Shown: positions 3,983-19,230 of the stretch, in pieces
Position numbering within the stretch: position 1 is the stretch's first letter
Layout of the letters: every line of letters begins with the position of its first letter
IMG/VR virus record: IMGVR_UViG_2721755728_000002
Reading direction: 5' to 3' (one strand)
From: a virus
Lineage: Duplodnaviria > Heunggongvirae > Uroviricota > Caudoviricetes
DNA length: 55,396 nucleotides
Position numbers and translations under genes: made by a program
Notes under the pieces: model-generated
The model's input: the letters and a program-made list of their open reading frames with translations, nothing else
Databases searched by the model: none
Told to the model about the DNA's origin: nothing

Positions 3983-4174
3983 TTAAAGACCTGCCGGGAT
4001 TTCGTTATTATCCTGGTGAATAACTTTATCGACCGGGTAACAGTTACCGGGAATTTTCTGTTCGGTTGCTGCAGTCACACACTCCTGCATTGTCCTGTGA
4101 ACACTGACTGCAATATCAACTGGCTCTCCGGAAACAAGAAAAACTGTCAGAACAAGTGCAAATGCTGTATTCAT
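3983..4174 (-). CDS. Small secreted protein (signal peptide, 2 Cys), function unknown
   Basis: MNTAFALVLTVFLVSGEP signal-like N-terminus; start overlaps upstream stop as ATGA (translational coupling). Confidence 0.45.
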   Translation of the reverse strand: MNTAFALVLTVFLVSGEPVDIAVSVHRTMQECVTAATEQKIPGNCYPVDKVIHQDNNEIPAGL

Positions 4175-4359
4175 TGCCAGCATCCTTTTTGTATCGGACG
4201 TAAACGGGCCAGCATTGAAAGAATGCATATTTTATTTAATAACTCCCGTTCGTGTTTTCTCTTGTTAATGGCATCTTCAGTAAATACAGGGTTACTGATA
4301 GTGACACCAATTTCAAAACAACCTTCAGACGTATTAACGTTTGGTAATAACGTTTCCAT
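4171..4359 (-). CDS. Small early-left protein, possibly Kil-like host division inhibitor
   Basis: 62 aa from METLLPNVNTSEG...; position between exo and immunity region matches lambda kil; identity from recall only. Confidence 0.35.
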   Translation of the reverse strand: METLLPNVNTSEGCFEIGVTISNPVFTEDAINKRKHERELLNKICILSMLARLRPIQKGCWQ

Positions 4360-4927
4360 TATCGCGTCCTCAACAATGAATTTTGTGATGCAGTGCCTGG
4401 TGCCTCCAGGTGACGTTAACCAGTTAACAATTAACGCCGGATACAGAGAATCCACCCATAACACTGTTTTTGGTTTTAACTGTTCCGCGTGCGCTTAGCC
4501 GCATTCACCGCATCACAAAATTCACTTTAAAAAGGGCGGCAGAGCAGTCACGGAGTAAAACTGATACCGCCAAACGTCACCAGAAAATTGATAACAGAGG
4601 GCGTTGCAGCGGGGTTGTCACTTAAGCGTATGGTCAACCTGACAACCCGGTGTCCTCAACGGGGGAAGGAATAACCCCGCCATACTTACCGCCGCGCCAT
4701 TTCGCGGATTGCCACAACCGGAAGCGCACGGTCGACGAAAATTTAACGACAGGCTATCTATGAACCAGCTACCTCGCCGTGCGCTTTCGCGTTATGGTCT
4801 GACTTTTCAGGGAAATATCCTTTCAGTAAACTGTCAGTGCCGGATGCTCACCCGTGTCCGGCGCACGCACTCCACCTCATCCGTGGAGAACTCCTTAATT
4901 ACCAACCTTAGCTTCGTTGGTTAGCTA

Positions 4928-5305: not shown

Positions 5306-5461
5306 TCACTCACCTGAGTTTCTTTCCAGCCAGCGACGGGCACCATTTTCGGTTTTAAACGTTTTGCTTTTGGTATACGTCATCGCGGTGAATGTGCCGT
5401 CCTGGTTGGGAAACACGCCGTACACCAGAGATTCATTGTTGCCAAGATCGATAGTATCCAT
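5306..5461 (-). CDS. DUF1391/YdaF-like small protein
   Basis: 51 aa from MDTIDLGNNESLVYGVFPNQDGTF...; GAGG 6 nt upstream of ATG at 5461. Confidence 0.5.
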   Translation of the reverse strand: MDTIDLGNNESLVYGVFPNQDGTFTAMTYTKSKTFKTENGARRWLERNSGE

Positions 5462-5669
5462 GCTGACCTCATTTCCCCTTAACGCCGGGGTAGCGGAACT
5501 AAAAAACTGCTGCGCTGTTATATAAAGTGTTCCCGCCGTCATGTTCATACGCCTCGGGCTGGCTACTTAACCCCTGACCACTGCCGGGTAACTCGAAGTA
5601 TTGCCTGGCGTTCTGTGGGGCGGGGTGGGTTGATGAATGAATAATACCACTACTATTTAATTATGTAAA

Positions 5670-5682
5670 TAGCAGTGCTATT
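5670..5682. promoter_or_regulatory. Operator-like palindrome ATAG-N5-CTAT (putative OL half-site pair)
   Basis: atagcagtgctat; same motif architecture recurs in the cI-cro intergenic region; overlaps a second inverted repeat ctattta...taaatag (5653-5672). Confidence 0.35.
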
Positions 5683-5692
5683 ATCGTGGCAA

Positions 5693-5718
5693 GAAAAAAA
5701 CCACCCGAAGGTGGTTGT
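5693..5718 (-). terminator. Rho-independent terminator after the toxin-antitoxin/cI transcript
   Basis: On the minus strand, hairpin accacc-ttcg-ggtggt followed by a T-run (plus strand aaaaaaaccacccgaaggtggtt). Confidence 0.45.
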
Positions 5719-5730
5719 TGACAGGAAGGA

Positions 5731-6021
5731 TTAACAGGTTTTGTTTGGATACTGTCTTCGTGAGTGAACTACATTTACGATCTCGATGTTAGATGCTGTT
5801 ACTCGGTAAAGTATTATGTAGTTAGGATGAGTCACTATCTCACGAAGACTTGGAACTCTTTCGCTCGGTGGGTACAGATAAGGGTGTTCAGTAAGTGACA
5901 AAACTGATGTTTCAATGCGTATTTTTAGTCTACGTGCAGCGGGAGGGTTTTCCTTAGCAATATAGGCTACGATCTGACGTAAATCATCACGTGCAGAAGG
6001 TAGCCATAAAATGGGCAGCAT
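5731..6021 (-). CDS. Type II toxin, ParE/RelE family
   Basis: 96 aa; ParE/RelE-like sequence (ILYRV...NIEIVNVVHSRRQYP); stop/start overlap with upstream small gene. Confidence 0.8.
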   Translation of the reverse strand: MLPILWLPSARDDLRQIVAYIAKENPPAARRLKIRIETSVLSLTEHPYLYPPSERVPSLREIVTHPNYIILYRVTASNIEIVNVVHSRRQYPNKTC

Positions 6022-6212
6022 TACTCACTCCTGTTCGTTGCAGCTAATTGAGCAATAAGGTTTTCCATTTCAGCCATTACTTCGTCATGTGGAATTGCAG
6101 GACGGGGATCTGAGAGGCTTGCTGCCACTTTGGTTCGCAACCATTCGTTATAGCTGTTTTCTTGTTCGACTGTTTCAAATTCAGAAATTATCGGGGAAAG
6201 GGCTGTACTCAT
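6021..6212 (-). CDS. Type II antitoxin (ParD-like) partner
   Basis: 63 aa acidic protein immediately upstream of the ParE-like gene with 1-nt overlap. Confidence 0.65.
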   Translation of the reverse strand: MSTALSPIISEFETVEQENSYNEWLRTKVAASLSDPRPAIPHDEVMAEMENLIAQLAATNRSE

Positions 6213-6229
6213 GTTTTTACCTCCTCAGA

Positions 6230-6730
6230 TTAGGCGCGACGACCCTTTTGCGCAGCTAGCCATCGCGCAACGATTTCTTCAATTGATTCTTTTTTCTCCT
6301 TCATTTCCTTAAGCATTTTCTCTTTATCTTCTTTGGGGAAAGCCCTGAACGTCTGGAGCAAATCCCGCTCCATGGGGTCTATATTAAACGGAAGTTCGTT
6401 TTCCGATTGTTCCATATCTGCAGATATAGTGACAACATTGTCCTCCCCAGATTCTTGGGGATACATCCTTACAATTTGTAACAACTCGGCCATATCTGGT
6501 CTGATTGACTCGGGAGGAACTTGCAGCAACCCTGCGAACTTGATAACAGCCTCAAGATTTAAAGGTGTCTGACCATTTAGATAATGGCTTACAGCTCCCT
6601 GTGTCGAAAATCCCAGAATTTCTGCCGCACGCTCTTGGGTTAACCCTAGTTGATTTTTTTTCGCCGTCCAGATTTCTTTCAGTCTCTGGGCGGCTTGCAG
6701 GTCGATCTCTGACAGGGGTTTTCTTTTCAT
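6230..6730 (-). CDS. CI-like prophage repressor (XRE-family HTH)
   Basis: 166 aa; HTH LTQERAAEILGFSTQGAVSHYLNG; divergent from Cro-like gene across an operator-containing intergenic region. Confidence 0.8.
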   Translation of the reverse strand: MKRKPLSEIDLQAAQRLKEIWTAKKNQLGLTQERAAEILGFSTQGAVSHYLNGQTPLNLEAVIKFAGLLQVPPESIRPDMAELLQIVRMYPQESGEDNVVTISADMEQSENELPFNIDPMERDLLQTFRAFPKEDKEKMLKEMKEKKESIEEIVARWLAAQKGRRA

Positions 6731-6837
6731 ACCTTCAATTCTAATAAGATTATTAATCTCTTTGAAATAGTGATGCTATTTACTTTTAAAAATAACAATG
6801 CTATTAATGATCGTAATGACATCACATGAGGTGAACA
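6731..6837. promoter_or_regulatory. Immunity switch region (OR/PR/PRM-like)
   Basis: Divergent intergenic region; ATAG-N5-CTAT palindrome at 6767-6779 and degenerate copy at 6792-6804; TTGAAA -35-like hexamer at 6762-6767. Confidence 0.5.
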
Positions 6838-7113
6838 ATGAATCTTGGAGAATATTTGCATCATTCCGGTATAACTCAGAAGCATTTTGCTGAAATTGTT
6901 GGGGTAACCCAAGGGATGGTAAGCCATGTCATTACCGGACGGGCGAAACTTACGGGGAAAAAAATTTTACGCTGGTGCGAAGCAACAGGCTGGATAGTAA
7001 CTCCGCACGAGATTGATGGCAGTACTTATCCCAACCCAACCGACGGCTTACCTGTCGAGTATCAGGCTAACACACAACCAGAGGCGGGGGTGATTCATGA
7101 AAATCAAGCATGA
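6838..7113 (+). CDS. Cro-like / YdaS-like HTH regulator
   Basis: 91 aa, HTH (ITQKHFAEIVGVTQGMVSHVITG); first gene of the rightward operon. Confidence 0.7.
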   Translation: MNLGEYLHHSGITQKHFAEIVGVTQGMVSHVITGRAKLTGKKILRWCEATGWIVTPHEIDGSTYPNPTDGLPVEYQANTQPEAGVIHENQA

Positions 7114-7522
7114 ACACATCCGCATGGCAATGAATGCCTGGGCGTATCCAGACGGTGAGAAAGTTCCAGCAGCTGAAATAGCCCGGACTTATTTCGAACT
7201 GGGGATGACGTTCCCGGAACTGTACGACGACAGCCATCCGGAAGCCCTGGCCCGTAATACCCAGAAAATTTTCCGCTGGGTAGAGAAAGACACCCCTGAT
7301 GCAGTTGAAAAAATTCAGGCGTTGTTACCAGCGATCGAAAAGGCAATGCCACCTTTGCTGGTGGCCAGAATGCGCAGCCACAGTTCAGCTTATTTTCGGG
7401 AGCTGGTGGAGACGCGGGAGCGACTGGTGAGAGACGCTGATGATTTTGTCGCAGTGGCAATCGCCGGTTTCAATCAGATGAACCGTGGTGGCCCGGCAGG
7501 AAATGCTGTGGCAGTACATTGA
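7097..7522 (+). CDS. YdaT-like regulatory protein (CII position)
   Basis: 141 aa following Cro-like gene with 17-nt overlap; GAGG RBS. Confidence 0.5.
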   Translation: MKIKHEHIRMAMNAWAYPDGEKVPAAEIARTYFELGMTFPELYDDSHPEALARNTQKIFRWVEKDTPDAVEKIQALLPAIEKAMPPLLVARMRSHSSAYFRELVETRERLVRDADDFVAVAIAGFNQMNRGGPAGNAVAVH

Positions 7523-13439: not shown

Positions 13440-13685
13440 ATTCATTACGATATGGGAATTCCCATATCGGGTAAAAACGGTTTGCGGGAAAAGGAGAGTT
13501 AAGTAGAATTGCTGCGGGTGCTTGAGGCTATCTGTCTCAGGCATGAACACCAAAAGGCAGATAGAGAAAAGCCCCAGTTAACATTACGCGTCCTGCAAGA
13601 CGCTTAACATTAATCTGAGGCCCAATCTATGTCTCACAAATGTAGGTTAGCCTCTTACGTGCCGAAAGGCAAGGAGAAGCAGGCT

Positions 13686-13841
13686 ATGAAGCAGCAAAAG
13701 GCGATGTTAATCGCCCTGATCGTCATCTGTTTAACCGTCATAGTGACGGCACTGGTAACGAGGAAAGACCTCTGCGAGGTACGAATCCGAACCGGCCAGA
13801 CGGAGGTCGCTGTCTTCACAGCTTACGAACCTGAGGAATAA
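13686..13841 (+). CDS. hok: Hok/Gef-family type I toxin
   Basis: 51 aa MKQQKAMLIALIVICLTVIVTALVTRKDLCEVRIRTGQTEVAVFTAYEPEE; typical Hok membrane peptide; in-frame upstream extension from 13629. Confidence 0.8.
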   Translation: MKQQKAMLIALIVICLTVIVTALVTRKDLCEVRIRTGQTEVAVFTAYEPEE

Positions 13842-18020: not shown

Positions 18021-18096
18021 GGCCCTTTAGCTCAGTGGTGAGAGCGAGCGACTCATAATCGCCAGGTCGCTGGTTCAAATCCAGCAAGGGCCACCA
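18021..18096 (+). tRNA. tRNA with CAU anticodon (Ile2/ileX-like, or Met)
   Basis: 76 nt cloverleaf; acceptor stem GGCCCTT/AAGGGCC plus ACCA; anticodon loop CTCATAA; GGTTCAAATCC T-arm. Confidence 0.8.
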
Positions 18097-18196
18097 TCAC
18101 AAACCGCCATTAGCTTATCAGGAAGAGCAGACGACACCATAACAGGGTTGTTGGTGCGGGGGCGGGTCCCCGATGGCGGTCCATTATCGGTATTCT

Positions 18197-18273
18197 GCGT
18201 TGTTAGCTCAGCCGGACAGAGCAATTGCCTTCTAAGCAATCGGTCAGTGGTTCGACTCCACTACAACGCGCCA
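18197..18273 (+). tRNA. tRNA-Arg (UCU anticodon)
   Basis: 77 nt; acceptor GCGTTGT/ACAACGC plus GCCA; anticodon stem-loop ATTGC-CTTCTAA-GCAAT; GGTTCGACTCC T-arm. Confidence 0.8.
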
Positions 18274-18874: not shown

Positions 18875-19080
18875 CGGTAAAACTGCGCCTGGCTGTGGCT
18901 GCACTCCTGCTGTTTCTGGTGGTGATGGTGGATTTCACCAGCAGAATCATGTCGGTGCTGGCGGATGGGGTGCTGGTCTGCGGCATTGTGGTATTGCTGT
19001 GGCCGGTGATAAAAAGAAACAGCCTGCATAATGCTTGGTTTTTTTGTTTGCTGTTTATTAAAAACACTTCTGCATGGTGA
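18871..19080 (+). CDS. Small membrane protein coupled to the TerB-like gene
   Basis: 69 aa, two hydrophobic helices; GTGA start/stop overlap. Confidence 0.45.
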   Translation: MTVKLRLAVAALLLFLVVMVDFTSRIMSVLADGVLVCGIVVLLWPVIKRNSLHNAWFFCLLFIKNTSAW

Positions 19081-19205
19081 ATCCCCCTGTGCGGAGGGGC
19101 GATCAGCAACCAGGTATATGGGATAATCGCGGATTTAGGTGCTGATACTGAATTCACCGGGAGGCACCCGGCACCATACAAGAAAAAGAATGTGCATGCA
19201 AACAT

Positions 19206-19230
19206 GCCCCTCTCCGGAGGGGCTTTTTTA
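19206..19230 (+). terminator. Rho-independent terminator
   Basis: gcccctc-tccg-gaggggc followed by ttttttat. Confidence 0.55.

What the first reader, a model, noticed from the sequence alone, without database searches (positions are those of the whole stretch)
5650..6810. Shared operator motif ATAG-N5-CTAT on both sides of the immunity region
atagcagtgctat (5670-5682) and atagtgatgctat (6767-6779), with a degenerate ataacaatgctat (6792-6804), share the same dyad. One site lies left of the toxin-antitoxin/cI block and the others in the cI-cro intergenic region, as expected for OL and OR operators of a single repressor.
Basis: seen in the sequence. Interest (0 to 1): 0.4.

Follow-up and report, generated by a model that had tools for sequence, protein, structure and literature searches.

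The report
Prophage repressor operators at PL and PR
The repeated ATAG-N5-CTAT words are the cores of 17-bp palindromic repressor-binding sites that sit on the two early promoters flanking the immunity region of an E. coli lambdoid prophage: an ordinary lambda-style switch with a DNA specificity that I found described in no paper.

Summary
No binding experiment was possible.

- **Site definition.** The true unit is a 17-bp palindrome, AAATAGCAwTGCTATTT.
- **Independent test.** A weight matrix built only from 32 sites in eight related prophage loci finds exactly these four sites in the window (19-25 bits; next best 6.9).
- **Arrangement.** The sites lie as two pairs 25 bp apart, each pair covering the -35 and -10 of an outward early promoter. 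PL (5641-5669, - strand) drives a ydfA-dicF-dicB operon. PR (6779-6807, + strand) drives cro/ydaS-ydaT. A weak third site lies in PRM.
- **Specificity.** The motif follows the repressor's lambda-CI-like N-terminal domain and the Cro-like protein, which share a TQG-VSH recognition helix. Two PaaR-type loci of other immunity types, including the experimentally characterised CP-933P, lack it.

This is a heteroimmune relative of the CP-933P PaaR2/YdaS/YdaT, lambda and Qin DicA switches: a new member of a known kind, of modest interest.

The parts
5642..5658 (.). OL1: 17-bp operator TAATACCACTACTATTT (core 5644-5656). It lies in the spacer of PL and overlaps its -10.
   Evidence: One-mismatch hit. 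19.2 bits with the matrix built from relatives only. A homologous site is present in all 8 related loci.
5667..5683 (.). OL2: 17-bp operator AAATAGCAGTGCTATTA (core 5669-5681). It abuts and overlaps the PL -35.
   Evidence: Exact match. 23.6 bits. Conserved position in relatives.
5641..5669 (-). PL-like promoter, TTTACA (5669-5664), 17-nt spacer, TATTAT (5646-5641), with TG before the -10. It is directed leftward into ydfA-dicF-dicB.
   Evidence: Promoter scan, 10 of 12 matches; coordinates. The sequence just downstream of PL (CAACCCACCCCGCCCCACAGAA) is shared with the experimentally validated PL933P region of CP-933P (PMC8630535).
5699..5716 (-). Intrinsic-terminator-like hairpin plus T-run. 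It ends the repressor-paaA-parE transcript before PL.
   Evidence: A GC-rich hairpin with a T-run can be read at the same place in most related loci (sequences printed; read by eye).
5731..6021 (-). ParE-family toxin (96 aa)
   Evidence: Pfam PF05016, E 6.6e-18
6021..6212 (-). PaaA2-family antitoxin (63 aa)
   Evidence: Pfam PF21217, E 1e-21
6230..6730 (-). Immunity repressor (166 aa): lambda-CI-like N-terminal HTH domain joined to a PaaR2-type C-terminal domain, with no S24 peptidase.
   Evidence: Pfam HTH_3 only. Lambda CI N-terminal-domain structures match residues 2-90, E 1e-10. The last 44 aa are 55% identical to CP-933P PaaR2.
6738..6766 (-). PRM-like promoter, TTCAAA (6766-6761), 17-nt spacer, TAGAAT (6743-6738). 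The -10 ends 7 nt before the repressor ATG, so the mRNA is probably leaderless.
   Evidence: coordinates. The -10-to-ATG spacing of 6-7 nt with no Shine-Dalgarno sequence is conserved in relatives. A leaderless paaR2 was shown for CP-933P.
6742..6758 (.). Candidate OR3: weak, degenerate site inside the PRM spacer and -10.
   Evidence: Only 2.7 bits in the window. The homologous GATTAGTAAAACTATTA-type word at the same position ranks fourth to seventh among matrix hits in the eight relatives, fifth in five of them (3.8-10.8 bits).
6765..6781 (.). OR2: 17-bp operator AAATAGTGATGCTATTT (core 6767-6779). It overlaps the PR -35. Its centre is 43 bp upstream of the repressor ATG, next to the PRM -35.
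   Evidence: Exact match; 22.9 bits; conserved in the OR alignment.
6790..6806 (.). OR1: 17-bp operator AAATAACAATGCTATTA (core 6792-6804). It lies in the PR spacer and overlaps the -10.
   Evidence: One-mismatch hit. Best score in the window, 25.2 bits. Conserved.
6779..6807 (+). PR-like promoter, TTTACT (6779-6784), 17-nt spacer, TATTAA (6802-6807), directed rightward into cro/ydaS-ydaT.
   Evidence: Read from the sequence; coordinates. It fails the scanner's rule of T at the last -10 position. It has the same layout as PL: 32 of 50 identical bases, the best match to this 50-mer anywhere in the window.
6838..7113 (+). Cro/YdaS-like HTH protein (91 aa). Its recognition helix, TQGMVSH, is like the repressor's TQGAVSH.
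   Evidence: Pfam HTH_3. 35% identical to the repressor's HTH, E 2e-7. HTH conserved in all loci that carry the motif and different in the heteroimmune L001.
7097..7522 (+). YdaT (CII analogue), with a YdaT-box GTGATTCATGAAAATCAA at 7090-7107 over its start codon.
   Evidence: Pfam PF06254. 83% identical to CP-933P YdaT. Box found. Known boxes: TTGATT-N6-AATCAA and ATGATT-N6-AATCAA (PMC9986795, PMC11879457).
4171..5548 (-). Genes downstream of PL: ydfA-like DUF1391 (5306-5548), small ORFs, DicF sRNA (4534-4585) and DicB (4171-4464). These are the presumed targets of repression at OL.
   Evidence: Pfam; Rfam DicF, 76.7 bits.

Best explanation
The four sites are 17-bp palindromic operators (consensus AAATAGCAwTGCTATTT) of a lambdoid prophage immunity switch.

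Inferred mechanism:
- Dimers of the 166-aa repressor bind through its lambda-CI-like N-terminal domain. They occupy OR1 and OR2 and so block PR (cro/ydaS, ydaT, replication genes). They occupy OL1 and OL2 and so block PL (ydfA, DicF, DicB and the genes beyond).
- In each pair one site covers the -35 and the other the spacer and -10, so bound repressor excludes RNA polymerase.
- OR2 lies beside the PRM -35, centred about 43 bp upstream of the repressor ATG. From there it could stimulate the leaderless repressor-paaA-parE transcript. A weak OR3 inside PRM could shut that transcript off at high repressor level, or be the site Cro prefers.
- The Cro-like protein has the same recognition-helix motif and probably competes for the same sites.
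- The PaaR2-type C-terminal domain probably gives pairwise cooperativity (25-bp spacing) and possibly OL-OR looping over 1.1 kb.
- There is no S24 domain, so induction would need an antirepressor or dilution rather than RecA-stimulated cleavage.

Shown here: the sites, their enrichment, their conservation, their co-occurrence with one HTH type, and their overlap with promoter-like hexamers. Inferred: the binding itself, activation of PRM, cooperativity, looping and the induction route.
For: - **Enrichment.** Exact core 2 found against 0.35 expected. A matrix built from relatives alone picks only these four sites in 55 kb (19.2-25.2 bits against 6.9 for the next).
- **Leave-one-out scans.** In 8 of 9 sequences the four top hits are the OR pair and the OL pair.
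- **Promoter overlap.** One search gives PL (10 of 12 matches) and PRM; coordinates are.
- **Phylogenetic footprint.** AATA and TATT are invariant in all 32 relatives' sites apart from a single base, including half-sites that lie outside any -35 or -10 hexamer, while the flanks and the centre vary.
- **Independence of cargo.** The OL pair sits beyond PaaA2/ParE, HipA_2+DUF3037, HigB/HigA or unknown genes.
- **Specificity controls.** The heteroimmune loci L001 and L013 score at most 3.6 bits. L001 has its own ACTGT-N9/10-ACAGT at both places and CP-933P has GTTTAGTG-type repeats.
- **Repressor domains.** The N-terminal domain matches lambda CI N-terminal-domain structures at E 1e-10. The C-terminal domain is 55% identical to PaaR2.
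- **Shared helix.** Repressor and Cro share TQG-VSH.
- **Experimental precedent in the homologous locus.** PaaR2 and YdaS footprint OR and repress PR, PRM and PL933P, and PaaR2 octamerises (PMC8630535).
- **Positional orthology of PL.** The sequence just downstream of the window's PL matches that downstream of PL933P.
Against: - No binding or transcription data exist for this repressor or these sites.
- PR has a poor -10 (TATTAA) and fails the scanner's rule.
- OR3 is very weak in the window (2.7 bits).
- Half of each promoter-proximal site coincides with a -35 or -10 hexamer, so part of the conservation is promoter constraint.
- The related loci were found through the repressor, so they are not independent of it. 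Several E. coli loci (L002-L005) are close relatives of the window.
- The data cannot say whether the repressor or the Cro-like protein is the main binder.
Confidence: 0.85

Rival explanations
1. The sites are recognised mainly or only by the Cro/YdaS-like protein, or by another factor, and the 166-aa repressor binds different sequences in the same regions.
For: The Cro-like HTH co-occurs with the motif as strictly as the repressor's HTH does. In CP-933P the exact recognition sequences of PaaR2 and YdaS could not be separated.
Against: Repressor and Cro share the TQG-VSH helix, as expected for shared operators. No other repeated dyad is common to OL and OR. In phage Lyz12581Vzw (CI N-terminal domain 52% identical, Cro-like protein with a similar SQGFVS helix) one strong site of the same type lies in the OR region.
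Confidence: 0.07
2. PL and PR are simply two copies of one promoter module. The shared words reflect common descent and sigma-70 constraints, not a protein-binding dyad.
For: The PL and PR modules align at 32 of 50 bases, including the -35 and -10. The right halves of the sites coincide with promoter hexamers.
Against: The half-sites outside the hexamers (the left half of OL2 at about -50 to -43, the left half of OL1 and the distal half of OR1 in the spacers) are as invariant as those inside. Dyad symmetry is kept while the central bases change. The heteroimmune loci have similar promoter layouts but other repeats.
Confidence: 0.05
3. Chance occurrence of short AT-rich palindromes in AT-rich intergenic DNA.
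For: One-mismatch matches are not enriched window-wide (12 found, 9.8 expected).
Against:: four high-scoring sites only, at two homologous positions, recurring in every related locus.
Confidence: 0.01

Closest known systems
CP-933P (E. coli O157:H7) immunity region: PaaR2 / YdaS / YdaT with the paaR2-paaA2-parE2 operon, OR1-3, OL1-3 and PL933P (Jurenas et al. 2021, PMC8630535)
   Same: - Same gene order: repressor, PaaA2 antitoxin, ParE toxin, then a leftward PL; divergent Cro-like and YdaT genes.
- Same C-terminal domain of the repressor: 55% identical over the last 44 aa.
- YdaT 83% identical, with the YdaT-box conserved.
- Same sequence just downstream of PL.
- Probably a leaderless repressor mRNA, as shown there.
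- No S24 domain.
   Different: - The DNA-binding domain is unrelated. PaaR2 is 123 aa and only its C-terminal domain aligns.
- The operators differ: GTTTAGTG-type repeats there, AAATAGCAwTGCTATTT here. The matrix scores at most 3.6 bits in CP-933P.
- Here there are two strong sites per side plus a weak third. The paper reports three operators per side and four inverted repeats.
Bacteriophage lambda CI / Cro with OR1-3 and OL1-3
   Same: - The repressor's N-terminal domain, including a basic KRKPL N-terminus resembling lambda's KKKPL arm, is homologous to lambda CI's N-terminal domain, E 1e-10.
- 17-bp operators with an odd central base.
- Neighbouring sites 25 and 23 bp apart. From my own knowledge, lambda's are 24 and 23 bp.
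- One site next to the PRM -35.
- Accessory genes and a terminator lie between the repressor gene and PL, like rexAB in lambda (own knowledge).
   Different: - The operator sequence differs (lambda: TATCACCGCCAGTGGTA, own knowledge).
- The C-terminal domain is PaaR2/DicA-like rather than an S24 peptidase, so RecA-mediated cleavage is not expected.
- CII is replaced by YdaT.
- OL has two clear sites, not three.
- OL and OR are 1.1 kb apart.
Qin prophage DicA / DicC and the dicBF operon (PMC10448788)
   Same: - A short, non-cleavable repressor.
- A PL-equivalent promoter that drives ydfA, DicF sRNA and DicB; all three are present downstream of the predicted PL here.
- Operators are reported at both dicCp and dicBp.
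- A C-terminal segment like those of the 'DicA'-named relatives: the protein annotated dicA in phage Rac-SA53 is 54.5% identical over 77 aa of the N-terminal domain.
   Different: - Here a toxin-antitoxin pair lies between the repressor gene and PL.
- I did not compare the K-12 DicA protein or its operators directly, so the specificity relationship is untested.

Membership tests
Lambdoid immunity switch (CI/Cro with OR and OL) | Divergently transcribed repressor and cro-like genes separated by a spacer of about 100 bp | tested here: met
   Repressor at 6230-6730 (-) and Cro-like gene at 6838-7113 (+), 107-bp spacer; both are HTH_3.
Lambdoid immunity switch (CI/Cro with OR and OL) | Repeated dyad operators overlapping PR and PRM | tested here: met
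   OR1 at 6790-6806 and OR2 at 6765-6781 over the PR hexamers; weak OR3 at 6742-6758 inside PRM. The promoters are consensus predictions only.
Lambdoid immunity switch (CI/Cro with OR and OL) | The same operator at a second, leftward early promoter beyond the repressor operon | tested here: met
   OL1 at 5642-5658 and OL2 at 5667-5683 over TTTACA-17-TATTAT. Conserved in 8 related loci.
Lambdoid immunity switch (CI/Cro with OR and OL) | Repressor with an S24 (LexA-like) self-cleaving C-terminal domain | tested here: not met
   Pfam finds only HTH_3/HTH_31. The C-terminal part aligns to PaaR2. Lambda-type SOS induction is therefore not expected.
Lambdoid immunity switch (CI/Cro with OR and OL) | Repressor and Cro physically bind the operators and form a bistable switch | not testable with these tools
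   Needs EMSA, footprinting and reporter assays. Shown only for the homologous CP-933P.
PaaR-PaaA-ParE three-gene locus (CP-933P type) | Operon order regulator, PaaA2-family antitoxin, ParE toxin | tested here: met
   Pfam PF21217 and PF05016, adjacent and co-oriented with the repressor gene.
PaaR-PaaA-ParE three-gene locus (CP-933P type) | Regulator carries the PaaR2 C-terminal (oligomerisation) segment | tested here: met
   24 of 44 residues identical, E 3e-16. Also 47% identical over 87 aa to the L001 paralogue. Oligomeric state not testable.
PaaR-PaaA-ParE three-gene locus (CP-933P type) | Same DNA-binding domain and operator sequence as PaaR2 | tested here: not met
   No N-terminal alignment. 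CP-933P scores at most 3.6 bits with the matrix. Its OR and PL carry GTTTAGTG-type repeats. The window is heteroimmune to CP-933P.
Lambda CI N-terminal domain family | Sequence homology to the solved lambda CI DNA-binding domain | tested here: met
   Residues 2-90 match 1lmb, 3bdn and 7jvt at E 1e-10 to 7e-11.
DicA/DicC-dicBF module (Qin) | The repressed leftward promoter drives ydfA, DicF and DicB | tested here: met
   DUF1391 at 5306-5548, DicF at 4534-4585, DicB at 4171-4464, all on the - strand downstream of PL. Co-transcription was not tested.
DicA/DicC-dicBF module (Qin) | Repressor orthologous to K-12 DicA, with the same operators | not tested
   Only a phage protein annotated dicA (Rac-SA53) was compared: 54.5% identical over 77 aa. 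Its OR has weaker sites of the same 4-N5-4 geometry.

The most novel reading that the evidence does not exclude
A repressor family is built by domain shuffling: one PaaR2/DicA-type oligomerisation tail combined with interchangeable DNA-binding heads. The heads seen here are lambda-CI-like (this window), the L001 type, the CP-933P type, and natural two-headed proteins carrying two HTH domains in tandem. Each head type has its own operator set at OR and OL. Between the repressor gene and OL lies a slot that holds different toxin or defence cargo (ParE, HipA-like, HigB), expressed from the lysogenic promoter. The two-headed repressors might read two immunity specificities at once.
Probability: 0.3. 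Interest if true: 0.45.

Novelty: new member of a known kind. Interest (0 to 1): 0.25.

Why it matters
It gives a precise, testable operator definition (a 17-bp palindrome, four or five sites, with coordinates) for an immunity type found in about 70 complete E. coli genomes and in E. albertii and Shigella relatives. It predicts that this prophage's repressor keeps the cell-division inhibitors DicF and DicB silent and co-expresses a ParE toxin system. It adds a further immunity specificity to the PaaR2/DicA-type switches, which is useful for predicting cross-immunity among cryptic prophages. It does not change the current picture of lambdoid regulation.

Tried and rejected
- **Species-representative genome scan** for relatives of the repressor found nothing. 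I obtained relatives instead from the protein database and contig look-ups.
- **First weight matrix was out of register.** I cut 18-mers instead of 17-mers, so it gave blurred results. I discarded it and redid the scan.
- **L001 is not CP-933P.** I first took L001, the best O157:H7 match, to be CP-933P. The paper's primer table showed that PaaR2 starts MQKKE. The true locus was then fetched as L013, and L001 was kept as a second heteroimmune control.
- **Literature search for the six operator 13-mers** found no paper. A search for 'paaR1' returned only type VI secretion papers.
- **A third strong site at OL:** none seen in the alignment.
- **L001-type operators (ACTGT..ACAGT) in the loci of the two-HTH repressors:** none.
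- **The 12-pair 'terminator-like' hairpin at 5648-5677** is explained by two neighbouring palindromic operators. I do not take it to be a terminator.
Full report
**1. Observation**

Reading the window and searching for the pattern confirm two exact ATAG-N5-CTAT words in 55,396 bases. ATAGTGATGCTAT lies at 6767-6779. Shuffles give 0.35 on average. Window-wide, one-mismatch matches are not enriched (12 found, 9.8 expected), but four of the twelve lie in the two short non-coding stretches that flank the immunity block. Each pair is 25 bp centre to centre.

**2. Genes**

Pfam gives the following:

| Coordinates | Strand | Product |
|---|---|---|
| 6230-6730 | - | HTH_3 repressor, 166 aa |
| 6021-6212 | - | PaaA2-family antitoxin |
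| 5731-6021 | - | ParE toxin |
| 6838-7113 | + | Cro-like HTH protein |
| 7097-7522 | + | YdaT-family protein |

A DnaT-domain protein and a lambda-P-like replication protein follow on the right. On the left, all on the - strand, lie a DUF1391/ydfA gene (5306-5548), DicF sRNA (4534-4585; Rfam, 76.7 bits), DicB (4171-4464) and DUF1482. The region is identical to a prophage of E. coli strain C3. It is present at 80% coverage or more in 71 of 5,426 complete E. coli genomes.

**3. Promoters**

- The consensus scan finds a strong leftward promoter, TTTACA-17-TATTAT with TG before the -10, at 5669-5641. I call it PL.
- It also finds a leftward TTCAAA-17-TAGAAT at 6766-6738, whose -10 ends 7 nt before the repressor ATG. 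I call it PRM; its mRNA is probably leaderless.
- By eye, a rightward TTTACT (6779-6784), 17-nt spacer, TATTAA (6802-6807) is the likely PR. It fails the scanner's rule for the last -10 base.
- A hairpin plus T-run at 5716-5699 (-) follows parE.
- The 50 bases starting at OR2 have their best match in the whole window, on either strand, at PL read leftward (32 of 50). PL and PR therefore share one layout: one operator ending in the -35 and a second in the spacer ending in the -10.

**4. Comparative test**

The repressor has relatives at 77-90% identity (E. coli, E. albertii, Shigella), at about 50% identity (147-154 aa), and as longer two-HTH proteins (alignment). I fetched eleven loci for eight of these proteins.

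- In every locus a pair of sites 24-25 bp apart lies in the repressor-cro spacer.
- A second pair, 24-27 bp apart, lies on a -35/-10 beyond the end of the repressor operon.
- This holds whatever lies between: PaaA2/ParE, HipA_2 plus DUF3037, HigB/HigA, or unknown genes.
- Across the 32 sites, AATA and TATT are invariant apart from a single base. The symmetrised consensus is the 17-bp palindrome AAATAGCAATGCTATTT, 21 bits.
- The invariant half-sites include those that lie outside any promoter hexamer: the distal half of OL2, and the spacer halves of OL1 and OR1.
- A matrix built from these relatives alone scores the four window sites at 25.2, 23.6, 22.9 and 19.2 bits. The next best position in 55 kb scores 6.9.
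- Leave-one-out scans give the same clean separation in 8 of 9 sequences. The exception is the most diverged locus, L011, whose sites have ATAC/ATAT half-sites.
- A further word, GATTAG-N-CTATTA, sits at a constant position inside PRM and scores 3.8-10.8 bits; it ranks fourth to seventh among the hits, fifth in five of the eight relatives. The window's version, 6742-6758, scores only 2.7 bits. I list it as a weak OR3 candidate.

**5. Specificity**

- The repressor's residues 2-90 are homologous to the solved lambda CI N-terminal domain, E 1e-10. The match includes a basic N-terminus, KRKPL, that aligns with lambda's KKKPL.
- Its last 44 residues are 55% identical to CP-933P PaaR2.
- No S24 peptidase domain is found.
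- The Cro-like protein is 35% identical to the repressor over the HTH and shares TQG-VSH at the recognition helix. This Cro HTH is conserved in all motif-bearing loci and differs in the heteroimmune L001.
- Two heteroimmune loci with the same C-terminal tail serve as negative controls. One is L001, a different O157:H7 prophage. The other is L013, the true CP-933P, identified through the paper's primers. Both score at most 3.6 bits.
- Each control carries its own repeats at both positions. L001 has ACTGT-N9/10-ACAGT in both its OL-like and OR regions. CP-933P has GTTTAGTG-type repeats.
- The motif therefore tracks the DNA-binding head, not the tail, the toxin cargo or YdaT.
- Stx phage Lyz12581Vzw, whose LexA-type CI has an N-terminal domain 52% identical to the window's, has CAATAGTCTAGCTATTT (18.9 bits) in its OR. 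Phage Rac-SA53 has weaker sites of the same 4-N5-4 geometry.

**6. Comparison with what is known**

In CP-933P, EMSA, DNase I footprinting and gfp fusions showed that PaaR2 and YdaS bind the paaR2-ydaS spacer. They repress PR, PRM and a PL located beyond parE2 that carries similar operators. The same work reports that paaR2 mRNA is leaderless and that PaaR2 octamerises (PMC8630535). The sequence just downstream of the window's PL (CAACCCACCCCGCCCCACAGAA) is the same as that downstream of PL933P, so the two promoters are positional orthologues. In Qin, DicA represses dicCp and dicBp through operators at both, and an antirepressor relieves it (PMC10448788). The window's PL drives the same ydfA-dicF-dicB set. 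From my own knowledge of lambda (17-bp operators, 24- and 23-bp spacing at OR, OR2 next to the PRM -35), the geometry here closely parallels lambda's: 17 bp, 25 and 23 bp, and OR2 centred 43 bp upstream of the repressor ATG.

**7. Mechanism**

Repressor dimers on OR1/OR2 and on OL1/OL2 exclude RNA polymerase from PR and PL. OR2 may stimulate PRM. OR3 may mediate negative autoregulation or be the site Cro prefers. The shared tail may give cooperativity and an OL-OR loop. These steps are inferred by homology and position. What is shown here is the existence, enrichment and conservation of the sites, their link to one HTH type, and their overlap with promoter-like hexamers.

**8. Rivals**

- A Cro-only binding site cannot be excluded, but it is less likely given the shared recognition helix.
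- Plain promoter duplication does not explain the invariant distal half-sites or the maintained dyad symmetry.
- Chance is excluded.

**9. Verdict**

The finding is correct and can be sharpened, but it describes an ordinary lambdoid operator arrangement with a specificity I found in no paper (no paper holds the site sequences). It is a new member of a known kind, of modest interest.

Noticed in passing
window 7090-7107: GTGATTCATGAAAATCAA lies over the ydaT start codon. It is one base away from the published YdaT-boxes: TTGATT-N6-AATCAA in CP-933P and ATGATT-N6-AATCAA in Rac. This is the expected place for a PRE-like, YdaT-activated leftward promoter.
   Followed up: partly
proteins P0013-P0022; loci L006-L010 (repressor gene from 3001; from 1512 in L007): Relatives of 240-255 aa carry two HTH domains in tandem before the shared C-terminal tail. 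The first is like the window's head and the second is like the head of the O157:H7 L001 repressor. Their loci contain only ATAG-type operators and no L001-type ACTGT..ACAGT sites, so the role of the second head is unexplained.
   Followed up: partly
L002-L012, between the repressor gene and the OL pair: The slot between the repressor gene and OL holds different cargo in different prophages: PaaA2/ParE, HipA_2 plus DUF3037, HigB/HigA, or small unknown genes. It resembles the rexAB position of lambda.
   Followed up: partly
window 4171-4585 (- strand): DicF sRNA (4534-4585) and DicB (4171-4464) lie downstream of the predicted PL, as in the Qin dicBF operon. Loss of the repressor would therefore be expected to block cell division.
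   Followed up: partly
window 5601-5626 region; L002-L005; L013 2996-3025: A C-rich stretch, CAACCCACCCCGCCCCACAGAA, directly downstream of PL is conserved between heteroimmune prophages, including CP-933P. It marks the left boundary of the immunity-specific module. Its function is unknown (leader, nut-like site or something else).
   Followed up: no
window 5306-5548 (- strand): The longest ORF for the DUF1391/ydfA gene is 80 aa, but the Pfam match covers only residues 31-78 and relatives are called at 50-51 aa. The real start is probably an internal ATG.
   Followed up: no
window 5648-5677 (- strand): The scanner reports a 12-pair 'terminator-like' hairpin here. It is the by-product of two adjacent palindromic operators (OL2 right half and OL1 left half), not an obvious terminator.
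   Followed up: yes
window 13516-13691, 18021-18270, 19043-19297: Rfam also finds a sok antitoxin RNA (hok/sok type), two tRNA genes, and the sRNAs STnc100 and AgvB elsewhere in the prophage.
   Followed up: no
L001 1660-1679 and 2695-2713 (E. coli O157:H7 strain 2-6-2, a prophage other than CP-933P): A third PaaR-type immunity locus has its own dyad, ACTGT-N9/10-ACAGT, once in the OL-like region and once in OR. This is the same OL/OR logic with another specificity.
   Followed up: partly
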